Shown: positions 2,872-7,995 of the stretch, in pieces
Layout of the letters: every line of letters starts with the position of its first letter
Position numbering within the stretch: the first letter of the stretch is position 1
Assembly: GCA_964447555.1 (NCBI GenBank)
Contig: CAYUTG010000001.1
Span: 1 to 55,779, forward strand
Reading direction: 5' to 3'
DNA length: 55,779 bases
Source: an uncultured Marinobacter sp.
Lineage (GTDB): Bacteria > Pseudomonadota > Gammaproteobacteria > Pseudomonadales > Oleiphilaceae
Translations under genes and position numbers: made by a program
The notes under the pieces: model-generated
Told to the model about the DNA's origin: nothing
Database searches by the model: none
Seen by the model: only the letters and a program-made list of their open reading frames with translations

Positions 2872-3456
2872 TTATTCCTCCGTGTCACCCATGACGGCCC
2901 GAAGCGCATCCATGTGAGGGCGCACCGCCCTGATGTCGGCTGGTGGCGCATTGGTGGCACTTTTCATCATGCCCATAGCACCGGACATCATGGCTTTCAT
3001 TTGTGCTTTCTGCTCAGGGGTCATGTCCGGGTTGTTTTCGATGTCTGCCATGGCATCAGCCATGTCCTGCTGCATGTCGGGGTTTTCACCTTTCATCTCA
3101 ATGGCCATCATGGCATGGAAGACCCGGTCTCCCACCAGCGCCCACTTCTCGGGGCTGTCAAAACCATGCTTTTCAACCATATCTTCAAACTGGTCGTATG
3201 CCGGATAGTCTTTCATTTTTTCAACGCCCTCGGAAAACAGCCGGGACATATCAGGCATCGATTCCATATCTTCATCAGTCATGTCAGGCCACTGGTCTGT
3301 GCCTTCGTATTGCTCCTGCAATGCCTGGGCATCCCGCATACTGTCGATAAAGGCACGTATGTTGCTGTCAGACAGGGTTTCCGCCTGCGTGGAAAATGCC
3401 AGCAGAGATAATAGCAGGGCCAGTGCGCTACGGCTGATTGTCTGAGTTGTAAACAT
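2872..3456 (-). CDS. Secreted/periplasmic Met-rich acidic hypothetical protein
   Basis: AAGGAG RBS before ATG 3456; signal peptide ending STQA; 22 Met in about 169 mature residues. Confidence 0.8.
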   Translation of the reverse strand: MFTTQTISRSALALLLSLLAFSTQAETLSDSNIRAFIDSMRDAQALQEQYEGTDQWPDMTDEDMESMPDMSRLFSEGVEKMKDYPAYDQFEDMVEKHGFDSPEKWALVGDRVFHAMMAIEMKGENPDMQQDMADAMADIENNPDMTPEQKAQMKAMMSGAMGMMKSATNAPPADIRAVRPHMDALRAVMGDTEE

Positions 3457-3568
3457 TGAACACTCCTTATCCATTGAATCGGGCGGTATCACCCGGATTC
3501 CGCCACCTCAGACTTCAGACTAGCGGATTGCCCGGCAACGGCAAGGAGTGATTCCCGGTTGATTATTA

Positions 3569-3653: not shown

Positions 3654-3980
3654 ATGAGTGAAACACACGTATCAGAAAACGCGAGCCGTCTTGGCCTGAC
3701 GCTGGCGCTGGTATTGGTGTTTCTGGCCTGGAGCATGGCCGGGGTCAATGCTCCGGCACTGGACCATCAGTTCGATGGCCCCGGTTCTTCTCAGGTGGTG
3801 TTACTGGACTCATCCGGCGACTCACCCTCGGCAGATCTTGGCCCGCCGGGCACGGCACTGCCTGTTATTCCGCTGGCCAGCGGGCATCTTGTATTTTCCC
3901 CCAACCTGTTTTTTGTGAAACCTCCGGCCCGCCTGCTGAGTTATCCCAGCTTGCCTCAGGGCCCGCCATCCCTCGTTTGA
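3654..3980 (+). CDS. Small membrane/secreted leader protein ending QGPP-SLV; candidate ribosome-arrest (attenuator) peptide
   Basis: Hydrophobic segment LGLTLALVLVFLAWSMAG, Ser/Pro-rich spacer, C-terminal YPSLPQGPPSLV. The last codons are complementary to the downstream SD. Confidence 0.65.
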   Translation: MSETHVSENASRLGLTLALVLVFLAWSMAGVNAPALDHQFDGPGSSQVVLLDSSGDSPSADLGPPGTALPVIPLASGHLVFSPNLFFVKPPARLLSYPSLPQGPPSLV

Positions 3981-4076
3981 TCGCTGCTGCTTTACAGCAC
4001 ATCAATAACTCCCTTCCGGGTATGTGCTGACGTCATCATCAGATAGTTATTAGTCAGTTATCAAACAGTTACGAGG
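3971..4076 (+). promoter_or_regulatory. Predicted SD-sequestering RNA structure (translational attenuator) for the CBS gene
   Basis: CCTCG-TTTGAT (3971-3981) can pair with ATCAAA (4060-4065) and CGAGG (4072-4076, the SD of ATG 4083). Internal stem CAGCACAT (3995-4002)/ATGTGCTG (4022-4029). Confidence 0.55.
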
Positions 4077-4082
4077 TTTACC

Positions 4083-4682
4083 ATGAACAAACAATTTAAC
4101 ACTCTGCCGGTACGGGATCTGGCACGAACCTACTCTCTGGCCACGGCCCGGCCGGCCTACACTATTGAGAGCAGTGATTCTGCGGTGCACCTGTTAACCG
4201 ATTTTTGCCAGCGCCGGCCCGCTGCGCTCAGTTCGGATATGAATATTACTGAGGCCAGGCTGTGGATGAAAATGGCTGACACGGCGTTTAAACTGGTAGA
4301 AAACACCGCAGGTGAGTGTGTGGGGCTTATTACCATTGAAGACATCAACGGGGAGCAGGCACTCAGCCTTGCGCACCGGCGGGGCATACTGGCCGGAGAA
4401 ATACTGGTCAAGGATATTATGTGCCCGCTCAGTGAGTTGCCGGCCACACACTACCAGGACCTCTGTCACGCAACCGCCGGCGATCTGGTCAGCACGTTCC
4501 AGGCCGTCCATCATGAGTATATTCTGGTGGTGGATGACGACCGGCAGCATGAGGGAGCGCAATACCTGCGGGGTATTGTTGCGGCGGCTCAGCTTGTTGA
4601 GCACCTGCGTGTTCCGATTGATCTCGGCCACCGGGCGTCTTCATTTTCCGACATAGTAAATGTTGTGCAGGGGAACTTTTAA
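4083..4682 (+). CDS. CBS-domain-containing protein (stand-alone CBS pair)
   Basis: CBS-like segments CVGLITIEDI, VKDIMCP and ILVVD...LRGIVAAAQL; GAGG RBS. Confidence 0.8.
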   Translation: MNKQFNTLPVRDLARTYSLATARPAYTIESSDSAVHLLTDFCQRRPAALSSDMNITEARLWMKMADTAFKLVENTAGECVGLITIEDINGEQALSLAHRRGILAGEILVKDIMCPLSELPATHYQDLCHATAGDLVSTFQAVHHEYILVVDDDRQHEGAQYLRGIVAAAQLVEHLRVPIDLGHRASSFSDIVNVVQGNF

Positions 4683-4687
4683 AACCT

Positions 4688-4718
4688 GGCGGGCCGGGGA
4701 GTCAATGCCCGGCCCGCC
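4688..4718. other. Strong GC hairpin between the CBS gene and pycA (stabiliser, processing site or weak terminator)
   Basis: 11-bp perfect stem GGCGGGCCGGG/CCCGGCCCGCC, 9-nt loop, no U-tract on the + strand. Confidence 0.5.
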
Positions 4719-4753: not shown

Positions 4754-6175
4754 ATGGCCATAAGGAAGCTACTGATTGCCAATCGGGGTGAGATTGCAGT
4801 CAGAATTGCCCGGGCCTGTCGCGAACTGGGTATACGCTCGGTGGCGATTTATTCAGAAGCCGACGAGTATTCCCTTCATGTCAAAAAGGCAGATGAGTCT
4901 TATCAGATCAGCAAAGACCCTCTGTCTGGTTATCTTAATCCCCACCACATTGTGAACATGGCGGTAGAAACCGGCTGTGATGCCTTGCACCCGGGGTACG
5001 GGTTTTTATCCGAGAATGCCGAACTGGCGGCTATCTGCAAACAGCGGGGCGTTACCTTTGTGGGGCCGTCGGCGGAGGCCATTTCGTCTATGGGCGATAA
5101 AACCCATGCCCGGCAAACGGCCAAGGCTGCCGGTGTACCGGTTACGCCGGGCTCGGAGGGCAATCTGGCCGATGTTGAAGACGCGGTTACCCAGGCCTCG
5201 GGCATTGGCTATCCGGTGATGCTGAAGGCAACCTCCGGTGGTGGTGGCCGTGGTATTCGCCGCTGTGATAACGAAAAAGAACTGCGCCAGAACTATGAGC
5301 GCGTAATTTCCGAGGCCAGTAAGGCCTTTGGCAGCGCCGAAGTATTTCTGGAAAAGTGTGTGATAGACCCACGCCACATTGAAGTGCAGGTTCTGGCAGA
5401 TTCCCACGGCAATGTGGTGCACCTGTATGAACGTGACTGCTCCATTCAGCGCCGTAATCAGAAGCTGATTGAAGTGGCACCGTCGCCTCAGCTTGATGAA
5501 AGCCAGCGGGAGTACATTGGCGAACTGGCCAGGCGCGTTACGAAAGAGTGTGGGTACGAAAATGCCGGCACTGTGGAATTTCTGCTGGATGACGACGGCA
5601 GTTTCTACTTTATGGAGATGAACACCCGGGTGCAGGTGGAGCACACCATTACGGAAGAAATCACCGGCATTGATATTATCAAGGCCCAGATCCGTATTGC
5701 TGCTGGCGAGCCACTGGAGTTCCGGCAGGAAGATATCAGCTACCGGGGGTTTGCCGCACAATTCCGGATTAACGCTGAAGACCCGAAAAACGGCTTTCTG
5801 CCCAGCTTTGGCCGTATCAGCCGTTACTATTCTGCCGGTGGCCCCGGTGTGCGTACCGATGCCAACATGTACACGGGGTACGAAATTCCCCCCTATTACG
5901 ATTCCATGTGTGCCAAGCTGATTGTCTGGGCCATGAGCTGGCCAGAATTGATCGCCCGTTCGCGCCGTGCGCTAAGTGATATGGCCATTTACGGTGTGCA
6001 CACCACAATCCCGTATTATCAGCAGATTCTGGCCAGTGATGAATTTCAGGCCGCTGACTTTAATACCGGTTTTGTTGAGCATAACCCGCAACTGCTGGAG
6101 TACAGCAACAAAACCCGCCCTGAATCCGTCGCCACCGCCATTGCTGCAGCTATTGCCGCCCAGGCTGGCCTGTAA
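4754..6175 (+). CDS. pycA: Biotin carboxylase subunit of a two-subunit pyruvate carboxylase
   Basis: LIANRGEIA, HPGYGFLSEN, KATSGGGGRG, RDCSIQRRNQK, EMNTRVQVEH, YDSMCAKL; directly upstream of a carboxyltransferase-BCCP gene. Confidence 0.88.
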   Translation: MAIRKLLIANRGEIAVRIARACRELGIRSVAIYSEADEYSLHVKKADESYQISKDPLSGYLNPHHIVNMAVETGCDALHPGYGFLSENAELAAICKQRGVTFVGPSAEAISSMGDKTHARQTAKAAGVPVTPGSEGNLADVEDAVTQASGIGYPVMLKATSGGGGRGIRRCDNEKELRQNYERVISEASKAFGSAEVFLEKCVIDPRHIEVQVLADSHGNVVHLYERDCSIQRRNQKLIEVAPSPQLDESQREYIGELARRVTKECGYENAGTVEFLLDDDGSFYFMEMNTRVQVEHTITEEITGIDIIKAQIRIAAGEPLEFRQEDISYRGFAAQFRINAEDPKNGFLPSFGRISRYYSAGGPGVRTDANMYTGYEIPPYYDSMCAKLIVWAMSWPELIARSRRALSDMAIYGVHTTIPYYQQILASDEFQAADFNTGFVEHNPQLLEYSNKTRPESVATAIAAAIAAQAGL

Positions 6176-6198: not shown

Positions 6199-7995
6199 AT
6201 GACCAAACGTAAAATACATATTACCGACGTTATCCTGCGAGACGCACACCAGTCGCTGATTGCCACAAGAATGCGCACTGACGACATGCTGCCGGCCTGC
6301 GAATGGCTGGATCAGGCCGGTTACTGGTCTCTTGAGTGCTGGGGCGGTGCCACCTTCGATGCCTGTGTCCGGTTTCTGAAGGAAGACCCATGGGAGCGCC
6401 TGCGCACTCTGCGAAAGGCCCTGCCGAATACCCGCTTACAGATGTTGCTACGGGGGCAGAACCTGCTGGGTTACCGCCATTATGGTGACGATGTTGTGGA
6501 AGGGTTTGTGGCCAAGGCGGCGGAAAACGGCATTGATGTGTTCCGTATCTTCGATGCGCTGAACGATGTCCGCAACCTGGAAACCAGCATTAAGGCCGTA
6601 AAAAAGGCCGGCAAGCACGCCCAAGGCACCCTGTGCTACACCGTGAGCCCGGTACACGACACAGACGCGTATCTTGAACAGGCCAAAGCCATGGCGGATA
6701 TGGGCGCAGACAGCATCGCCATCAAGGACATGGCCGGGTTGCTTACGCCTGCGGTTACCGCTGATCTGGTCGGCAAGCTCAAGCAGAACTTCAAGCTGCC
6801 GGTGTTCCTGCACTCTCATGCGACCTCAGGCATGGCACCCATGTGCCAGTGGGCCGCTATGGAGGCAGGGGTCGATCATATTGATACCGCACTGTCAGCC
6901 TTTGCCGGTGGCACCAGCCACCCGCCAACCGAGTCTCTGGTTGCTGCACTGCACGATGCCGGTTACGAGACCGGTCTGAACCTTGAGCTGCTTGATAAGG
7001 CCACCCGCCACTTCCGGGAAGTGCGCAAGAAGTATCACCAGTTTGAAAGTGCCTATAGCGGCGTGGATACCTCGGTACTGCTGTCTCAGGTGCCCGGTGG
7101 CATGATGTCCAATCTGGCTAACCAGATGAAGGAACAAGGTGCGCTTGATCGCATTCAGGACGTTTTTGAAGAGATTCCCAAGGTACGTAAAGACCTTGGC
7201 TACCCACCATTGGTCACGCCCACCTCACAAATTGTCGGCACTCAGGCCGTGATTAACGTGCTTGGTGGCAAGCGGTACGACACCATTACCAACGAGGTGA
7301 AAAAATACCTGCAGGGCTGGTATGGCAAGGCTCCGGCCGCAGTGGATGCAGAGCTCCAGCGCCGCGCCGTGGGCAACGAAGAACTGATTGAAGAGCGCCC
7401 GGCCAATCTGATTCCACGTGAGCTGGATGAACTGCGTAAAGAAATTGGCAAGCTGGCAGAAAGCGATGAAGACGTACTGACCTACGCCATGTTCCCGGAC
7501 CAGGCCAGAACCTATCTGGAGCAGCGCCGTGATGGCACCCTGGAGCCAGAGGCACTGGAGCCGTTGCCAACAGAAAGAACCGGTGGAAACGTGGCCAGCC
7601 GCTTCAAGGTTACCGTGCATGGCGAAAGCTACGACATTCACCTGACCGGTGCCAACCCGATCAGCGAGACCGAGCGCCGTTTCTACATGACAGTGGACGG
7701 GGTGCCCGAGGAAATCCAGCTGGACTCCCAGCATGATGAAACACAATCCGGTCCGGGGGCAGATCTGGAAGCCGCTACGAAAGAAGGGCACGTTACGACC
7801 AGTATGCCCGGCAATATTGTGGATGTGCTGGTGAAAGAAGGCGATAAAGTTGAGGCTGGTGATCCGGTGCTGATCATCGAAGCCATGAAGATGGAAACTG
7901 AGGTGAAGGCGATCGTTTCTGGTGAAGTGAAGGGCGTGTTTATCACCAAAGGCGACCGGGTGGTGCCGGGAGAAGTTCTGATCAATATCGAGTAA
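6199..7995 (+). CDS. pycB: Pyruvate carboxylase subunit B (carboxyltransferase + biotin carrier; often auto-annotated oadA)
   Basis: LRDAHQSL, WGGATFD, IKDMAG, LVTPTSQIVG and C-terminal EAMKM biotinylation motif. Paired with a BC subunit; no oadB/oadG nearby. Confidence 0.88.
   Translation: MTKRKIHITDVILRDAHQSLIATRMRTDDMLPACEWLDQAGYWSLECWGGATFDACVRFLKEDPWERLRTLRKALPNTRLQMLLRGQNLLGYRHYGDDVVEGFVAKAAENGIDVFRIFDALNDVRNLETSIKAVKKAGKHAQGTLCYTVSPVHDTDAYLEQAKAMADMGADSIAIKDMAGLLTPAVTADLVGKLKQNFKLPVFLHSHATSGMAPMCQWAAMEAGVDHIDTALSAFAGGTSHPPTESLVAALHDAGYETGLNLELLDKATRHFREVRKKYHQFESAYSGVDTSVLLSQVPGGMMSNLANQMKEQGALDRIQDVFEEIPKVRKDLGYPPLVTPTSQIVGTQAVINVLGGKRYDTITNEVKKYLQGWYGKAPAAVDAELQRRAVGNEELIEERPANLIPRELDELRKEIGKLAESDEDVLTYAMFPDQARTYLEQRRDGTLEPEALEPLPTERTGGNVASRFKVTVHGESYDIHLTGANPISETERRFYMTVDGVPEEIQLDSQHDETQSGPGADLEAATKEGHVTTSMPGNIVDVLVKEGDKVEAGDPVLIIEAMKMETEVKAIVSGEVKGVFITKGDRVVPGEVLINIE

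What the first reader, a model, noticed from the sequence alone, without database searches (positions are those of the whole stretch)
3654..4085. Candidate new ribosome-arrest leader (QGPP) with an anti-SD switch upstream of a CBS protein and pyruvate carboxylase
Seen: (1) a 108-aa ORF with an N-terminal hydrophobic/signal segment, a low-complexity Ser/Pro spacer, and Q-G-P-P (3957-3968) three codons before the stop. (2) The next bases, CCTCGTTTGAT (3971-3981), are the reverse complement of ATCAAA...CGAGG (4060-4076), which holds the SD of the CBS gene (ATG 4083). (3) An inner 8-bp stem (3995-4002/4022-4029) brings the two together, and its loop (AATAACT, 4004-4010) could also pair with AGTTATT (4045-4051). 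Known: SecM (RAGP), MifM, VemP, ApdA/ApdP (RAPP) and CruR/DUF2946 leaders combine an export or membrane signal with a C-terminal stalling motif, and the stalled ribosome controls the downstream gene. Inference: a ribosome paused at GPP would cover 3971-3981 and free the SD, while translocon pulling would release the arrest and shut it. The apparent target here is a CBS protein plus anaplerotic carboxylation rather than secretion machinery, which I do not recognise as described. That QGPP stalls is unproven.
Basis: partly seen in the sequence, partly recalled or inferred. Interest (0 to 1): 0.85.

Follow-up and report, generated by a model that had tools for sequence, protein, structure and literature searches.

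The report
Stalling leader before CBS–pyruvate carboxylase operon
A small gene conserved across Marinobacter ends in Gln-Gly-Pro-Pro just before a CBS-protein and pyruvate-carboxylase operon, and it likely acts as a ribosome-stalling switch that would turn the operon on when its own export slows, possibly on loss of membrane voltage; the kind of switch is known, but I found this motif variant and this target undescribed.

Summary
The leader is real. 41 of 45 genus genomes with this CBS gene carry an orthologue: hydrophobic N-terminus, free spacer, conserved R-L-L-S-Y-P-x-L-P-Q-[G/A]-P-P, usually three residues before the stop. Arrest codons are under protein-level selection; the last three codons are constrained as RNA and pair with the CBS Shine-Dalgarno. 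A modelled stall footprint opens it in 31 of 39 orthologues (control footprint 4 of 39). Most likely an RQH/RAPP-type arrest-peptide attenuator; arrest itself is untested. Not wholly new: RAPP leaders before this CBS family are listed in Fujiwara 2025 source data (266 cases), and this scan noted RAPP/RGPP-CBS leaders on other DNA three times, and the acidic-patch/voltage idea once. New here: one Gln-motif branch; a pyruvate carboxylase target, with a second paralogous QAPP leader directly before pycA in 14 genomes that lacks the anti-SD switch but has a C-rich, Rho-like stretch; and an acidic patch 38-55 residues from the stall site, absent in DUF2946 leaders. Verdict: new variant of a known kind.

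The parts
3654..3980 (+). Leader ORF, 108 aa; weak own RBS (AAGG about 10 nt before ATG)
   Evidence: orthologues in 41 of 45 genus CBS loci; 23 hypothetical-protein homologues without Pfam
3693..3740 (+). Hydrophobic segment (residues 14-29), likely Sec signal peptide or signal anchor
   Evidence: hydropathy 2.9; conserved as hydrophobicity, not sequence; its end lies a median 79 residues from the P-site Pro
3807..3836 (+). Acidic patch D52, D56, D61 (52, 48 and 43 residues from the predicted P-site Pro104); D37 and D41 further out
   Evidence: control in DUF2946 leaders
3930..3968 (+). Extended candidate arrest motif R93-L-L-S-Y-P-S-L-P-Q-G-P-P105
   Evidence: R, P, Q, P, P invariant in 41 of 41 with synonymous codon variation; pN/pS 0.18
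3963..3968 (+). Predicted stall site: Pro104 codon in P site, Pro105 codon in A site
   Evidence: inferred from ApdA/ApdP structures (PMC10951233)
3971..3981 (+). Anti-SD arm (CCTCG in the Ser-Leu-Val codons) and base of the intergenic hairpin
   Evidence: Leu codon CTC in 24 of 28; tail pS 0.30, pN/pS 1.16; pairs counted
3918..3924 (+). Competing anti-SD AAACCTC inside the leader in this strain
   Evidence: MFE in longer windows; control footprint opens the SD in this strain
3995..4029 (+). Inner hairpin (8-bp stem 3995-4002/4022-4029)
   Evidence: inner hairpins of unrelated sequence in orthologues
4040..4071 (+). Strain-specific ~21-nt insertion with three AGTTA copies at 11-nt spacing
   Evidence: alignment against the nearest relative; below TRF threshold
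4072..4077 (+). Shine-Dalgarno (CGAGGT) of the CBS gene
4083..4682 (+). Stand-alone CBS-pair (Bateman module) protein, 199 aa
   Evidence: homologous to CBS genes in the published RAPP-uORF list
4688..4718 (+). GC-rich 11-bp hairpin between CBS and pycA, no U-tract
4754..6175 (+). Pyruvate carboxylase subunit A (biotin carboxylase)
   Evidence: PRK07178 over cut-off, adjacent to subunit B
6199..7995 (+). Pyruvate carboxylase subunit B
   Evidence: PRK09282 891 bits; a separate oadA-oadB lies on contig C48

Best explanation
The 108-codon ORF is a conserved leader whose ribosome likely stalls at Gln-Gly-Pro-Pro, would then cover the anti-SD in the last codons and so free the CBS ribosome-binding site, and is likely pulled free when its signal-bearing chain is exported through SecYEG, so the CBS-pycAB operon would be on when export force is low. 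Shown: the ORF, its conservation, protein-level selection on the motif, RNA-level constraint on the tail, and predicted footprint-specific opening of the SD in orthologues. Inferred: the stall (about 0.85), SD control of CBS (about 0.75), release by export pulling (about 0.6), extension to pycAB by polarity (about 0.5). The most likely signal is membrane energisation (about 0.3): an acidic patch sits where the chain enters the translocon during arrest, and membrane potential is known to pull acidic segments and release SecM arrest. The regulated genes fit: an adenylate-type CBS module, anaplerotic carboxylase and, in many relatives, the Na+/H+ antiporter NhaD.
For: 41 of 45 genus CBS loci carry the Q[GA]PP leader, 2 RAPP, 2 decayed or truncated. 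R-9, P-4 and Q are invariant although not selected for, with 2-6 synonymous codons each. pN/pS is 0.18 in the arrest region against 0.54 in the spacer and 0.72 in the signal; tail pS 0.30, pN/pS 1.16 (21 ungapped orthologues). Opening the CBS RBS costs 10.5 kcal/mol free, 5.3 after 5' truncation at the stall, 6.9 with random synonymous recoding (37 and 36 of 39). With a footprint constraint it is 9.7 to 6.3 (31 of 39), control footprint 9.9 (4 of 39). Cognate arm duplex -19.1 against -14.4 +/- 0.6 permuted, 0 of 2000 (kin not independent). Sister branch has RAPP/RGPP leaders: 48 of 68 order-level loci; Q leaders form one branch inside the leader-bearing CBS group. QAPP arrests in PURE and Q86A weakens it (PMC10987492); an RGPP leader induces secDF2 by the same SD mechanism. 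Acidic patch: most acidic 8-mer centred at 38-56 in 53 of 58 R-type leaders, 18 of 18 second leaders, 17 of 46 first leaders; shuffles 0, 10 and 0 of 1000; DUF2946 leaders 2 of 22. Chains meet SecYEG 40-50 residues from the PTC (PMC7886326); membrane potential pulls acidic segments and releases SecM arrest (review PMC6028853).
Against: No experiment on this peptide. QGPP in two ordinary proteins (HflK, TcyC) was among motifs tested, most of which did not arrest efficiently; QAPP arrest was weaker in vivo, possibly through EF-P. In this strain the switch is weak or ambiguous: 4.9 against 3.0 kcal/mol with recoded control 5.5, and a control footprint opens the SD as well as the stall footprint (3.6 against 4.5). 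RNAalifold found no consensus structure on 23 aligned spacers; two-sided covariation is thin (5 cells, 19 of 500 shuffles). Where a leader sits directly before pycA, the stall does not open the SD (8.7 against 8.6; 2 of 23). In Marinobacter first leaders the acidity is only moderate: about 25% of secreted-like control proteins are as acidic. The review notes that basic and neutral segments also released arrest. CruR release does not need its signal peptide. An A-x-A cleavage site is seen in only 9 of 40.
Confidence: 0.58

Rival explanations
1. Arrest leader released by a ligand or partner, not by export force (CruR-like). The acidic patch binds a cation (Mg2+, Na+, a metal) or a periplasmic factor, and this relieves the stall.
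For: CruR release is independent of its signal peptide (PMC9426467). The patch sits just outside the tunnel like CruR's CxxC. Second leaders carry several Cys. Targets are not export genes.
Against: The patch is conserved in charge and position but not in sequence across 58 unrelated R-type leaders, unlike a defined binding site. First leaders have no conserved Cys/His. Signal-to-stall spacing is tightly kept (median 76-79).
Confidence: 0.17
2. The main output is Rho-dependent transcription termination, blocked by the stalled ribosome, and the SD hairpin is secondary.
For: For leaders directly before pycA the SD sits in a local hairpin that the stall does not open, and the spacer is C-rich: 17.0 C against 6.3 G in 46 nt, where genome controls show C-G of 10 or more in 4.4% (many rows are close kin). 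CruR works this way. No convincing intrinsic terminator between leader and CBS.
Against: Leader-to-CBS spacers show no C>G bias (11.9 C, 12.0 G), and their tail codons are constrained to pair with the SD. This rival fits the second leader, not the one in this window.
Confidence: 0.1
3. A plain di-proline pause that reports EF-P activity or Pro-tRNA supply; the Gln version is a weak, EF-P-relieved form.
For: PMC10987492 suggests EF-P may explain weaker in vivo arrest of QAPP/HAPP peptides. The peptide is Pro-rich.
Against: Invariant R-9 and P-4, conserved S-6 and Y/F-5 point to tunnel contacts. A conserved export signal and spacing would be unnecessary. The sister leaders are RAPP/RGPP, which resist EF-P (PMC12992588 abstract).
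Confidence: 0.1
4. A small exported protein with its own function; motif and hairpin are incidental.
For: It has an export signal and is annotated as a hypothetical protein.
Against: The mature region evolves freely (pN/pS 0.54) while only the last 17 residues are conserved. It always lies first in the operon, and decays together with CBS in one genome.
Confidence: 0.05

Closest known systems
RAPP/RGPP small secretory uORFs upstream of diverse genes, CBS-domain group (Fujiwara et al., EMBO J 2025, PMC12992588, source data Fig. 4B)
   Same: About 100 aa, N-terminal export signal, motif a few residues before the stop, upstream of the same CBS family: 266 RAPP against 94 AAPP, fold 11.09; the Thalassolituus row matches L067, whose CBS is 26% identical to ours, E 4e-20.
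   Different: Gln instead of Arg, so outside their search; extended RLLSYPxLP motif; pyruvate carboxylase downstream. CBS, QGPP, carboxylase, acidic and NhaD have 0 hits in their main text. None of the CBS group is reported as tested in the sections I read.
RQH-family monitoring substrates (uA_RQH_Myxococcales QAPP; uDF_RQH_Enterobacterales RGPP; Fujiwara et al. 2024, PMC10987492)
   Same: Q/R-[A/G]-P-P motif, signal sequence, spacer over 30 residues, stem that hides the downstream SD and is broken by the stalled ribosome.
   Different: Those regulate secA or secDF, the machinery that pulls them; here the targets are CBS, pyruvate carboxylase and NhaD, so any feedback is indirect.
CruR / DUF2946 of Bordetella pertussis (PMC9426467)
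   Same: Exported RAPP leader controlling non-Sec genes; the C-rich spacer before pycA in relatives resembles its C>G bubble.
   Different: No DUF2946 match, no CxxC; acidic patch present here and absent there; first leader acts through an anti-SD.
SecM, VemP, MifM, ApdA/ApdP
   Same: Signal plus C-terminal arrest plus SD hairpin; stall register taken from ApdA/ApdP.
   Different: No sequence relation beyond the motif; MifM's acidic residues lie at the arrest site itself, here 43-52 residues away.

Membership tests
RQH-family Sec/YidC monitoring substrates | uORF of a sec or yidC gene | tested here: not met
   Downstream genes are CBS, pycA, pycB; not filed as a Sec/YidC monitoring substrate
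RQH-family Sec/YidC monitoring substrates | N-terminal signal or TM segment | tested here: met
   Hydropathy only; no SignalP or DeepTMHMM available
RQH-family Sec/YidC monitoring substrates | Conserved C-terminal R/Q/H-[A/G]-P-P motif | tested here: met
RQH-family Sec/YidC monitoring substrates | Spacer over 30 residues between signal and motif | tested here: met
   median 79
RQH-family Sec/YidC monitoring substrates | Motif-dependent elongation arrest in vitro or in vivo | not testable with these tools
   needs PURE, toeprint or Ribo-seq
RQH-family Sec/YidC monitoring substrates | Stem hiding the downstream SD, opened by the stalled ribosome | tested here: inconclusive
   Predicted in 31 of 39 orthologues against 4 of 39 control, but ambiguous in this strain and no RNAalifold consensus
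RQH-family Sec/YidC monitoring substrates | Arrest released by translocation | not testable with these tools
   needs signal-deletion and Sec-block assays
RAPP/RGPP uORFs upstream of diverse genes (Fujiwara 2025) | Literal RAPP or RGPP motif | tested here: not met
   QGPP here; 23 QGPP and 18 QAPP among 41. Filed as a variant, not a member
RAPP/RGPP uORFs upstream of diverse genes (Fujiwara 2025) | Under 300 aa, unannotated, motif near the C-terminus, localisation signal | tested here: met
RAPP/RGPP uORFs upstream of diverse genes (Fujiwara 2025) | Downstream gene belongs to an enriched class (CBS domain) | tested here: met
CruR / DUF2946 | Pfam DUF2946 match and CxxC motif | tested here: not met
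   no Pfam hit at E up to 1; no Cys in the window's leader
CruR / DUF2946 | C>G bubble and Rho-dependent termination after the uORF | tested here: not met
   leader-to-CBS spacers have no C>G bias; present only before pycA in relatives; Rho action itself untested

The most novel reading that the evidence does not exclude
These leaders are natural membrane-voltage sensors. During arrest their acidic patch sits in SecYEG, membrane potential pulls it and frees the ribosome, and depolarisation keeps the stall. In Marinobacter the sensor was re-wired, with a Gln motif and a duplicated leader using a second, Rho-type output, to switch on pyruvate carboxylase and NhaD; with the genome's oxaloacetate decarboxylase pump this could form an ATP-driven Na+ extrusion cycle that rebuilds the ion-motive force.
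Probability: 0.25. Interest if true: 0.82.

Novelty: new variant of a known kind. Interest (0 to 1): 0.5.

Why it matters
Arrest peptides are known to monitor protein export, copper and a few metabolites. This family would link a stalling ribosome to central carbon metabolism and sodium balance in marine bacteria, and it takes the place occupied by a divergent LysR regulator at the genus's other pyruvate carboxylase locus. It shows that motif searches limited to RAPP/RGPP miss whole branches. The position-fixed acidic patch makes a sharp test possible of whether cells use nascent-chain electrophoresis through SecYEG, so far shown with engineered constructs, as a natural voltage sensor. It also gives a lead on the function of a widespread, uncharacterised CBS protein.

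Tried and rejected
RNAalifold on 23 spacers gave no consensus structure, as inner regions do not align; on 12 spacers of the second clade it gave a stem short of the SD. Rfam: one chance-level hit, E 0.32. Promoter and terminator scans were at shuffle level. The AATAACT:AGTTATT pairing was rejected (probability 0.0). An anti-SD switch for leaders directly before pycA was tested and not found. The first charge profile was measured from the C-terminus by a script error and replaced. The IQ-TREE run did not finish; the tree is FastTree only, midpoint-rooted, with no clade test, so no order of events is claimed. A scan of the window's own genome (83% complete) found no other hydrophobic X[AG]PP leader at my thresholds. 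RNA runs: four contig-only runs of one study hold the region, and one contig spans 3750 to beyond 8200, but neighbouring stretches are also covered, so this shows neither transcription, an operon transcript nor regulation. CBS-PycB complex prediction, prompted by the DarB precedent (PMC8822347, abstract): no verdict. The protein Atlas gave no answer for this sequence. The Ismail 2015 paper is not held; I rely on a review's account. An early guess that the family is tied to carbonic anhydrase was dropped: the one CBS-anhydrase locus has no leader.

Full report
Observation. The ORF 3654-3980 encodes 108 aa ending SYPSLPQGPPSLV, with no Pfam or NCBIfam match. Downstream lie a CBS-pair protein and a two-subunit pyruvate carboxylase. 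The anti-SD complement is split by a 6-nt bulge, the exact CCTCG:CGAGG register has probability under 0.1 in this strain because competing registers take the SD, and the loop pairing does not form. Relatives are Marinobacter (record titles, names).

The leader is conserved and selected as protein. 45 of 191 genus genomes hold the CBS gene; I examined all 45. 41 have a hydrophobic leader ending Q[G/A]PP (23 QGPP, 18 QAPP), 2 have RAPP leaders, 1 has a truncated CBS without leader and 1 has both genes broken by stops. My pattern demanded x[AG]PP, so those columns are circular; Q, Arg at -9 and Pro at -4 were not demanded and are invariant in 41 of 41 with synonymous variation; the stop follows after three residues in 38 of 41. 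Among 21 ungapped orthologues pN/pS is 0.18 for residues 89-105, 0.54 for the spacer, 0.72 for the signal.

The tail is selected as RNA. The last three codons have pS 0.30 and pN/pS 1.16. The first varies among ten residues but mostly ends in C, and the Leu codon is CTC in 24 of 28, against 5 of 33, 8 of 32 and 1 of 31 at other Leu positions. Three loci change both sides (CTCAC with GTGAG). On the MAFFT alignment of 23 rows, with two rows out of register, 85.5% of cells pair against 30-58% in slid controls, but two-sided changes are few, and RNAalifold finds nothing. Single-sequence folding of 39 orthologues (2 with 268- and 312-nt spacers dropped) gives an RBS opening cost of 10.5 kcal/mol free, 5.3 after truncation at the stall and 6.9 after synonymous recoding. 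With 90 nt of upstream context, a footprint at the Pro-Pro codons lowers it by over 1 kcal/mol in 31 of 39, a footprint 45 nt upstream in 4 of 39. The window's own strain is one of the weak cases. These genomes are kin, so counts overstate independence.

Wider family. The CBS family occurs in 123 of 400 class-level genomes, but only 1 of the 89 loci fetched has a hydrophobic RAPP-like leader. In the order it occurs in 84 of 301 genomes, and 48 of 68 fetched loci have one. In a FastTree tree of 206 CBS proteins the leader-bearing ones fall on one branch (support 91; 54 R-type, 43 Q-type, 10 without), and the Q-type form one branch (98) that includes two non-Marinobacter genomes, one on a long branch.

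Pyruvate carboxylase is a target in its own right. pycA starts within 700 nt of CBS in 29 of 41 Q loci, one of them a broken copy; NhaD follows in 8 within the DNA fetched, though only about 15 had long flanks. In 14 genomes a second, paralogous leader ending ASFPVLPQAPP sits between CBS and pycA. A profile search found 7 leader places without CBS, 6 of them before pycA. Of 10 further pycA genes of the same 88-92% clade, 5 have an intact leader, 3 a decayed one, 2 none; 0 of 7 of the 83% clade and 0 of 3 of the 69% clade have one, and the latter sit divergent from a LysR gene, with carbonic anhydrase behind in the one I scanned. The name PycR for such regulators is recalled; I saw only a search listing. 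For the 23 leader-pycA junctions the stall does not open the SD, but the spacer is C-rich, as in CruR's Rho terminator (PMC9426467, passages). In the window there is no second leader, so control of pycAB would need polarity from an untranslated CBS gene; this is inference.

Acidic patch. Measured from the P-site Pro, leaders are neutral to basic over the first 35 residues and acidic at 38-55. The most acidic 8-mer centres at 38-56 in 53 of 58 mostly R-type leaders with no other likeness, 18 of 18 second leaders and 17 of 46 first leaders; within-spacer shuffles reach the observed concentration in 0, 10 and 0 of 1000. Secreted-like proteins of this genome average -1.1 over the matching span against -4.6 and -3.5, though 25% of them are as acidic as the median Marinobacter leader. 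22 motif-bearing frames at DUF2946 loci (two look spurious) have 8% D/E there and 2 of 22 centre in the window. The window's leader has D52, D56, D61 at 52, 48, 43. Chains reach SecYEG at 40-50 residues from the PTC (PMC7886326, passages), and membrane potential pulls acidic segments and releases SecM arrest, though basic and neutral segments also gave some release (review PMC6028853, passages; the original was not held).

Mechanism. Most likely the ribosome stalls with Pro104 in the P site (register from PMC10951233, passages), covers 3971-3978 and frees the CBS SD; export pulling ends the stall, the ribosome terminates and the hairpin closes. The best guess for the signal is membrane energisation. 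The genome also has oadA-oadB, so carboxylase plus decarboxylase could pump Na+ at ATP cost; that step is speculation from general knowledge of these enzymes.

What is known. PMC10987492 (passages, sections 7 and 13, 12 supplements searched, one cut): QAPP arrests in PURE, Q86A weakens it, an RGPP leader induces secDF2 through an SD hairpin, most motif-bearing ordinary proteins do not arrest, QGPP ones among those tested. PMC12992588 (abstract, sections 8, 12, 13, passages, source file 8 cut when stored, file 10 not searched): CBS is a top class downstream of RAPP uORFs, 266 against 94; NhaD rows exist; locus L067 is in the list and its CBS is homologous to ours. QGPP, CBS, carboxylase and acidic have no hits in its main text, nor carboxylase in file 8; unseen parts of the supplements could hold more. 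Paper searches for CBS with RAPP or uORF, pyruvate carboxylase with arrest peptide or Marinobacter and arrest peptide with membrane potential or NhaD since 2022 listed nothing describing this system; the library lacks most subscription papers. This scan noted RAPP/RGPP-CBS leaders three times on other DNA and the acidic-patch idea once, after I had noted that idea; nothing on Q-type or pyc leaders.

Verdict. A real, well-conserved leader that works like an RQH/RAPP arrest-peptide attenuator but fails the literal membership tests (not upstream of sec/yidC, not RAPP/RGPP). New variant of a known kind. Interest 0.5; the voltage-sensor reading has probability about 0.25 and would merit about 0.8.

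Noticed in passing
L006, L022-L034 (after CBS); L170-L173: Second paralogous leader (MQDA...ASFPVLPQAPP, several Cys) directly before pycA; no anti-SD link, C-rich spacer.
   Followed up: yes
L169, L174, L175 upstream of pycA: Decayed second leaders: one 28-aa internal-deletion form that keeps LPQAPP, two frameshifted remnants. A natural test of constitutive arrest.
   Followed up: partly
L074, L075, L177: An R-type leader (SGPGLPRAPP) before pycA-pycB-nhaD in Marinobacter genomes whose CBS lies elsewhere or was not found.
   Followed up: partly
L053 (G165): Leader and CBS both broken by stops, nhaD intact behind them.
   Followed up: partly
G000 C48:11113-14222 and C110:6249-7583: oadA-oadB Na+ pump genes, and an nhaD (62% to the relatives' copy) with no leader found upstream.
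   Followed up: partly
L228, L229; L250; L016: RAPP leader-CBS followed by pyruvate:ferredoxin oxidoreductase; QGPP leader-CBS followed by a CitMHS/NhaD-type transporter outside Marinobacter; leaderless CBS followed by carbonic anhydrase.
   Followed up: partly
L186-L188: A 69%-identical pycAB clade with a divergent LysR gene, carbonic anhydrase behind in L186, and no leader; not found in the window's incomplete genome.
   Followed up: partly
L015/L195, L130, L141: Tandem pairs of the CBS gene; in L195 a RASP-type leader precedes the first copy.
   Followed up: no
L196, L224, L230: RAPP leader about 390-400 nt upstream of CBS, much further than the usual 30-110 nt; an intervening element was not examined.
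   Followed up: no
window 2872-3492 (-): Divergent gene for a likely exported, Met- and Asp-rich protein with no Pfam family over cut-off.
   Followed up: no
window 4688-4718: Strong GC-rich hairpin between CBS and pycA without a U-tract; similar hairpins in close relatives.
   Followed up: partly
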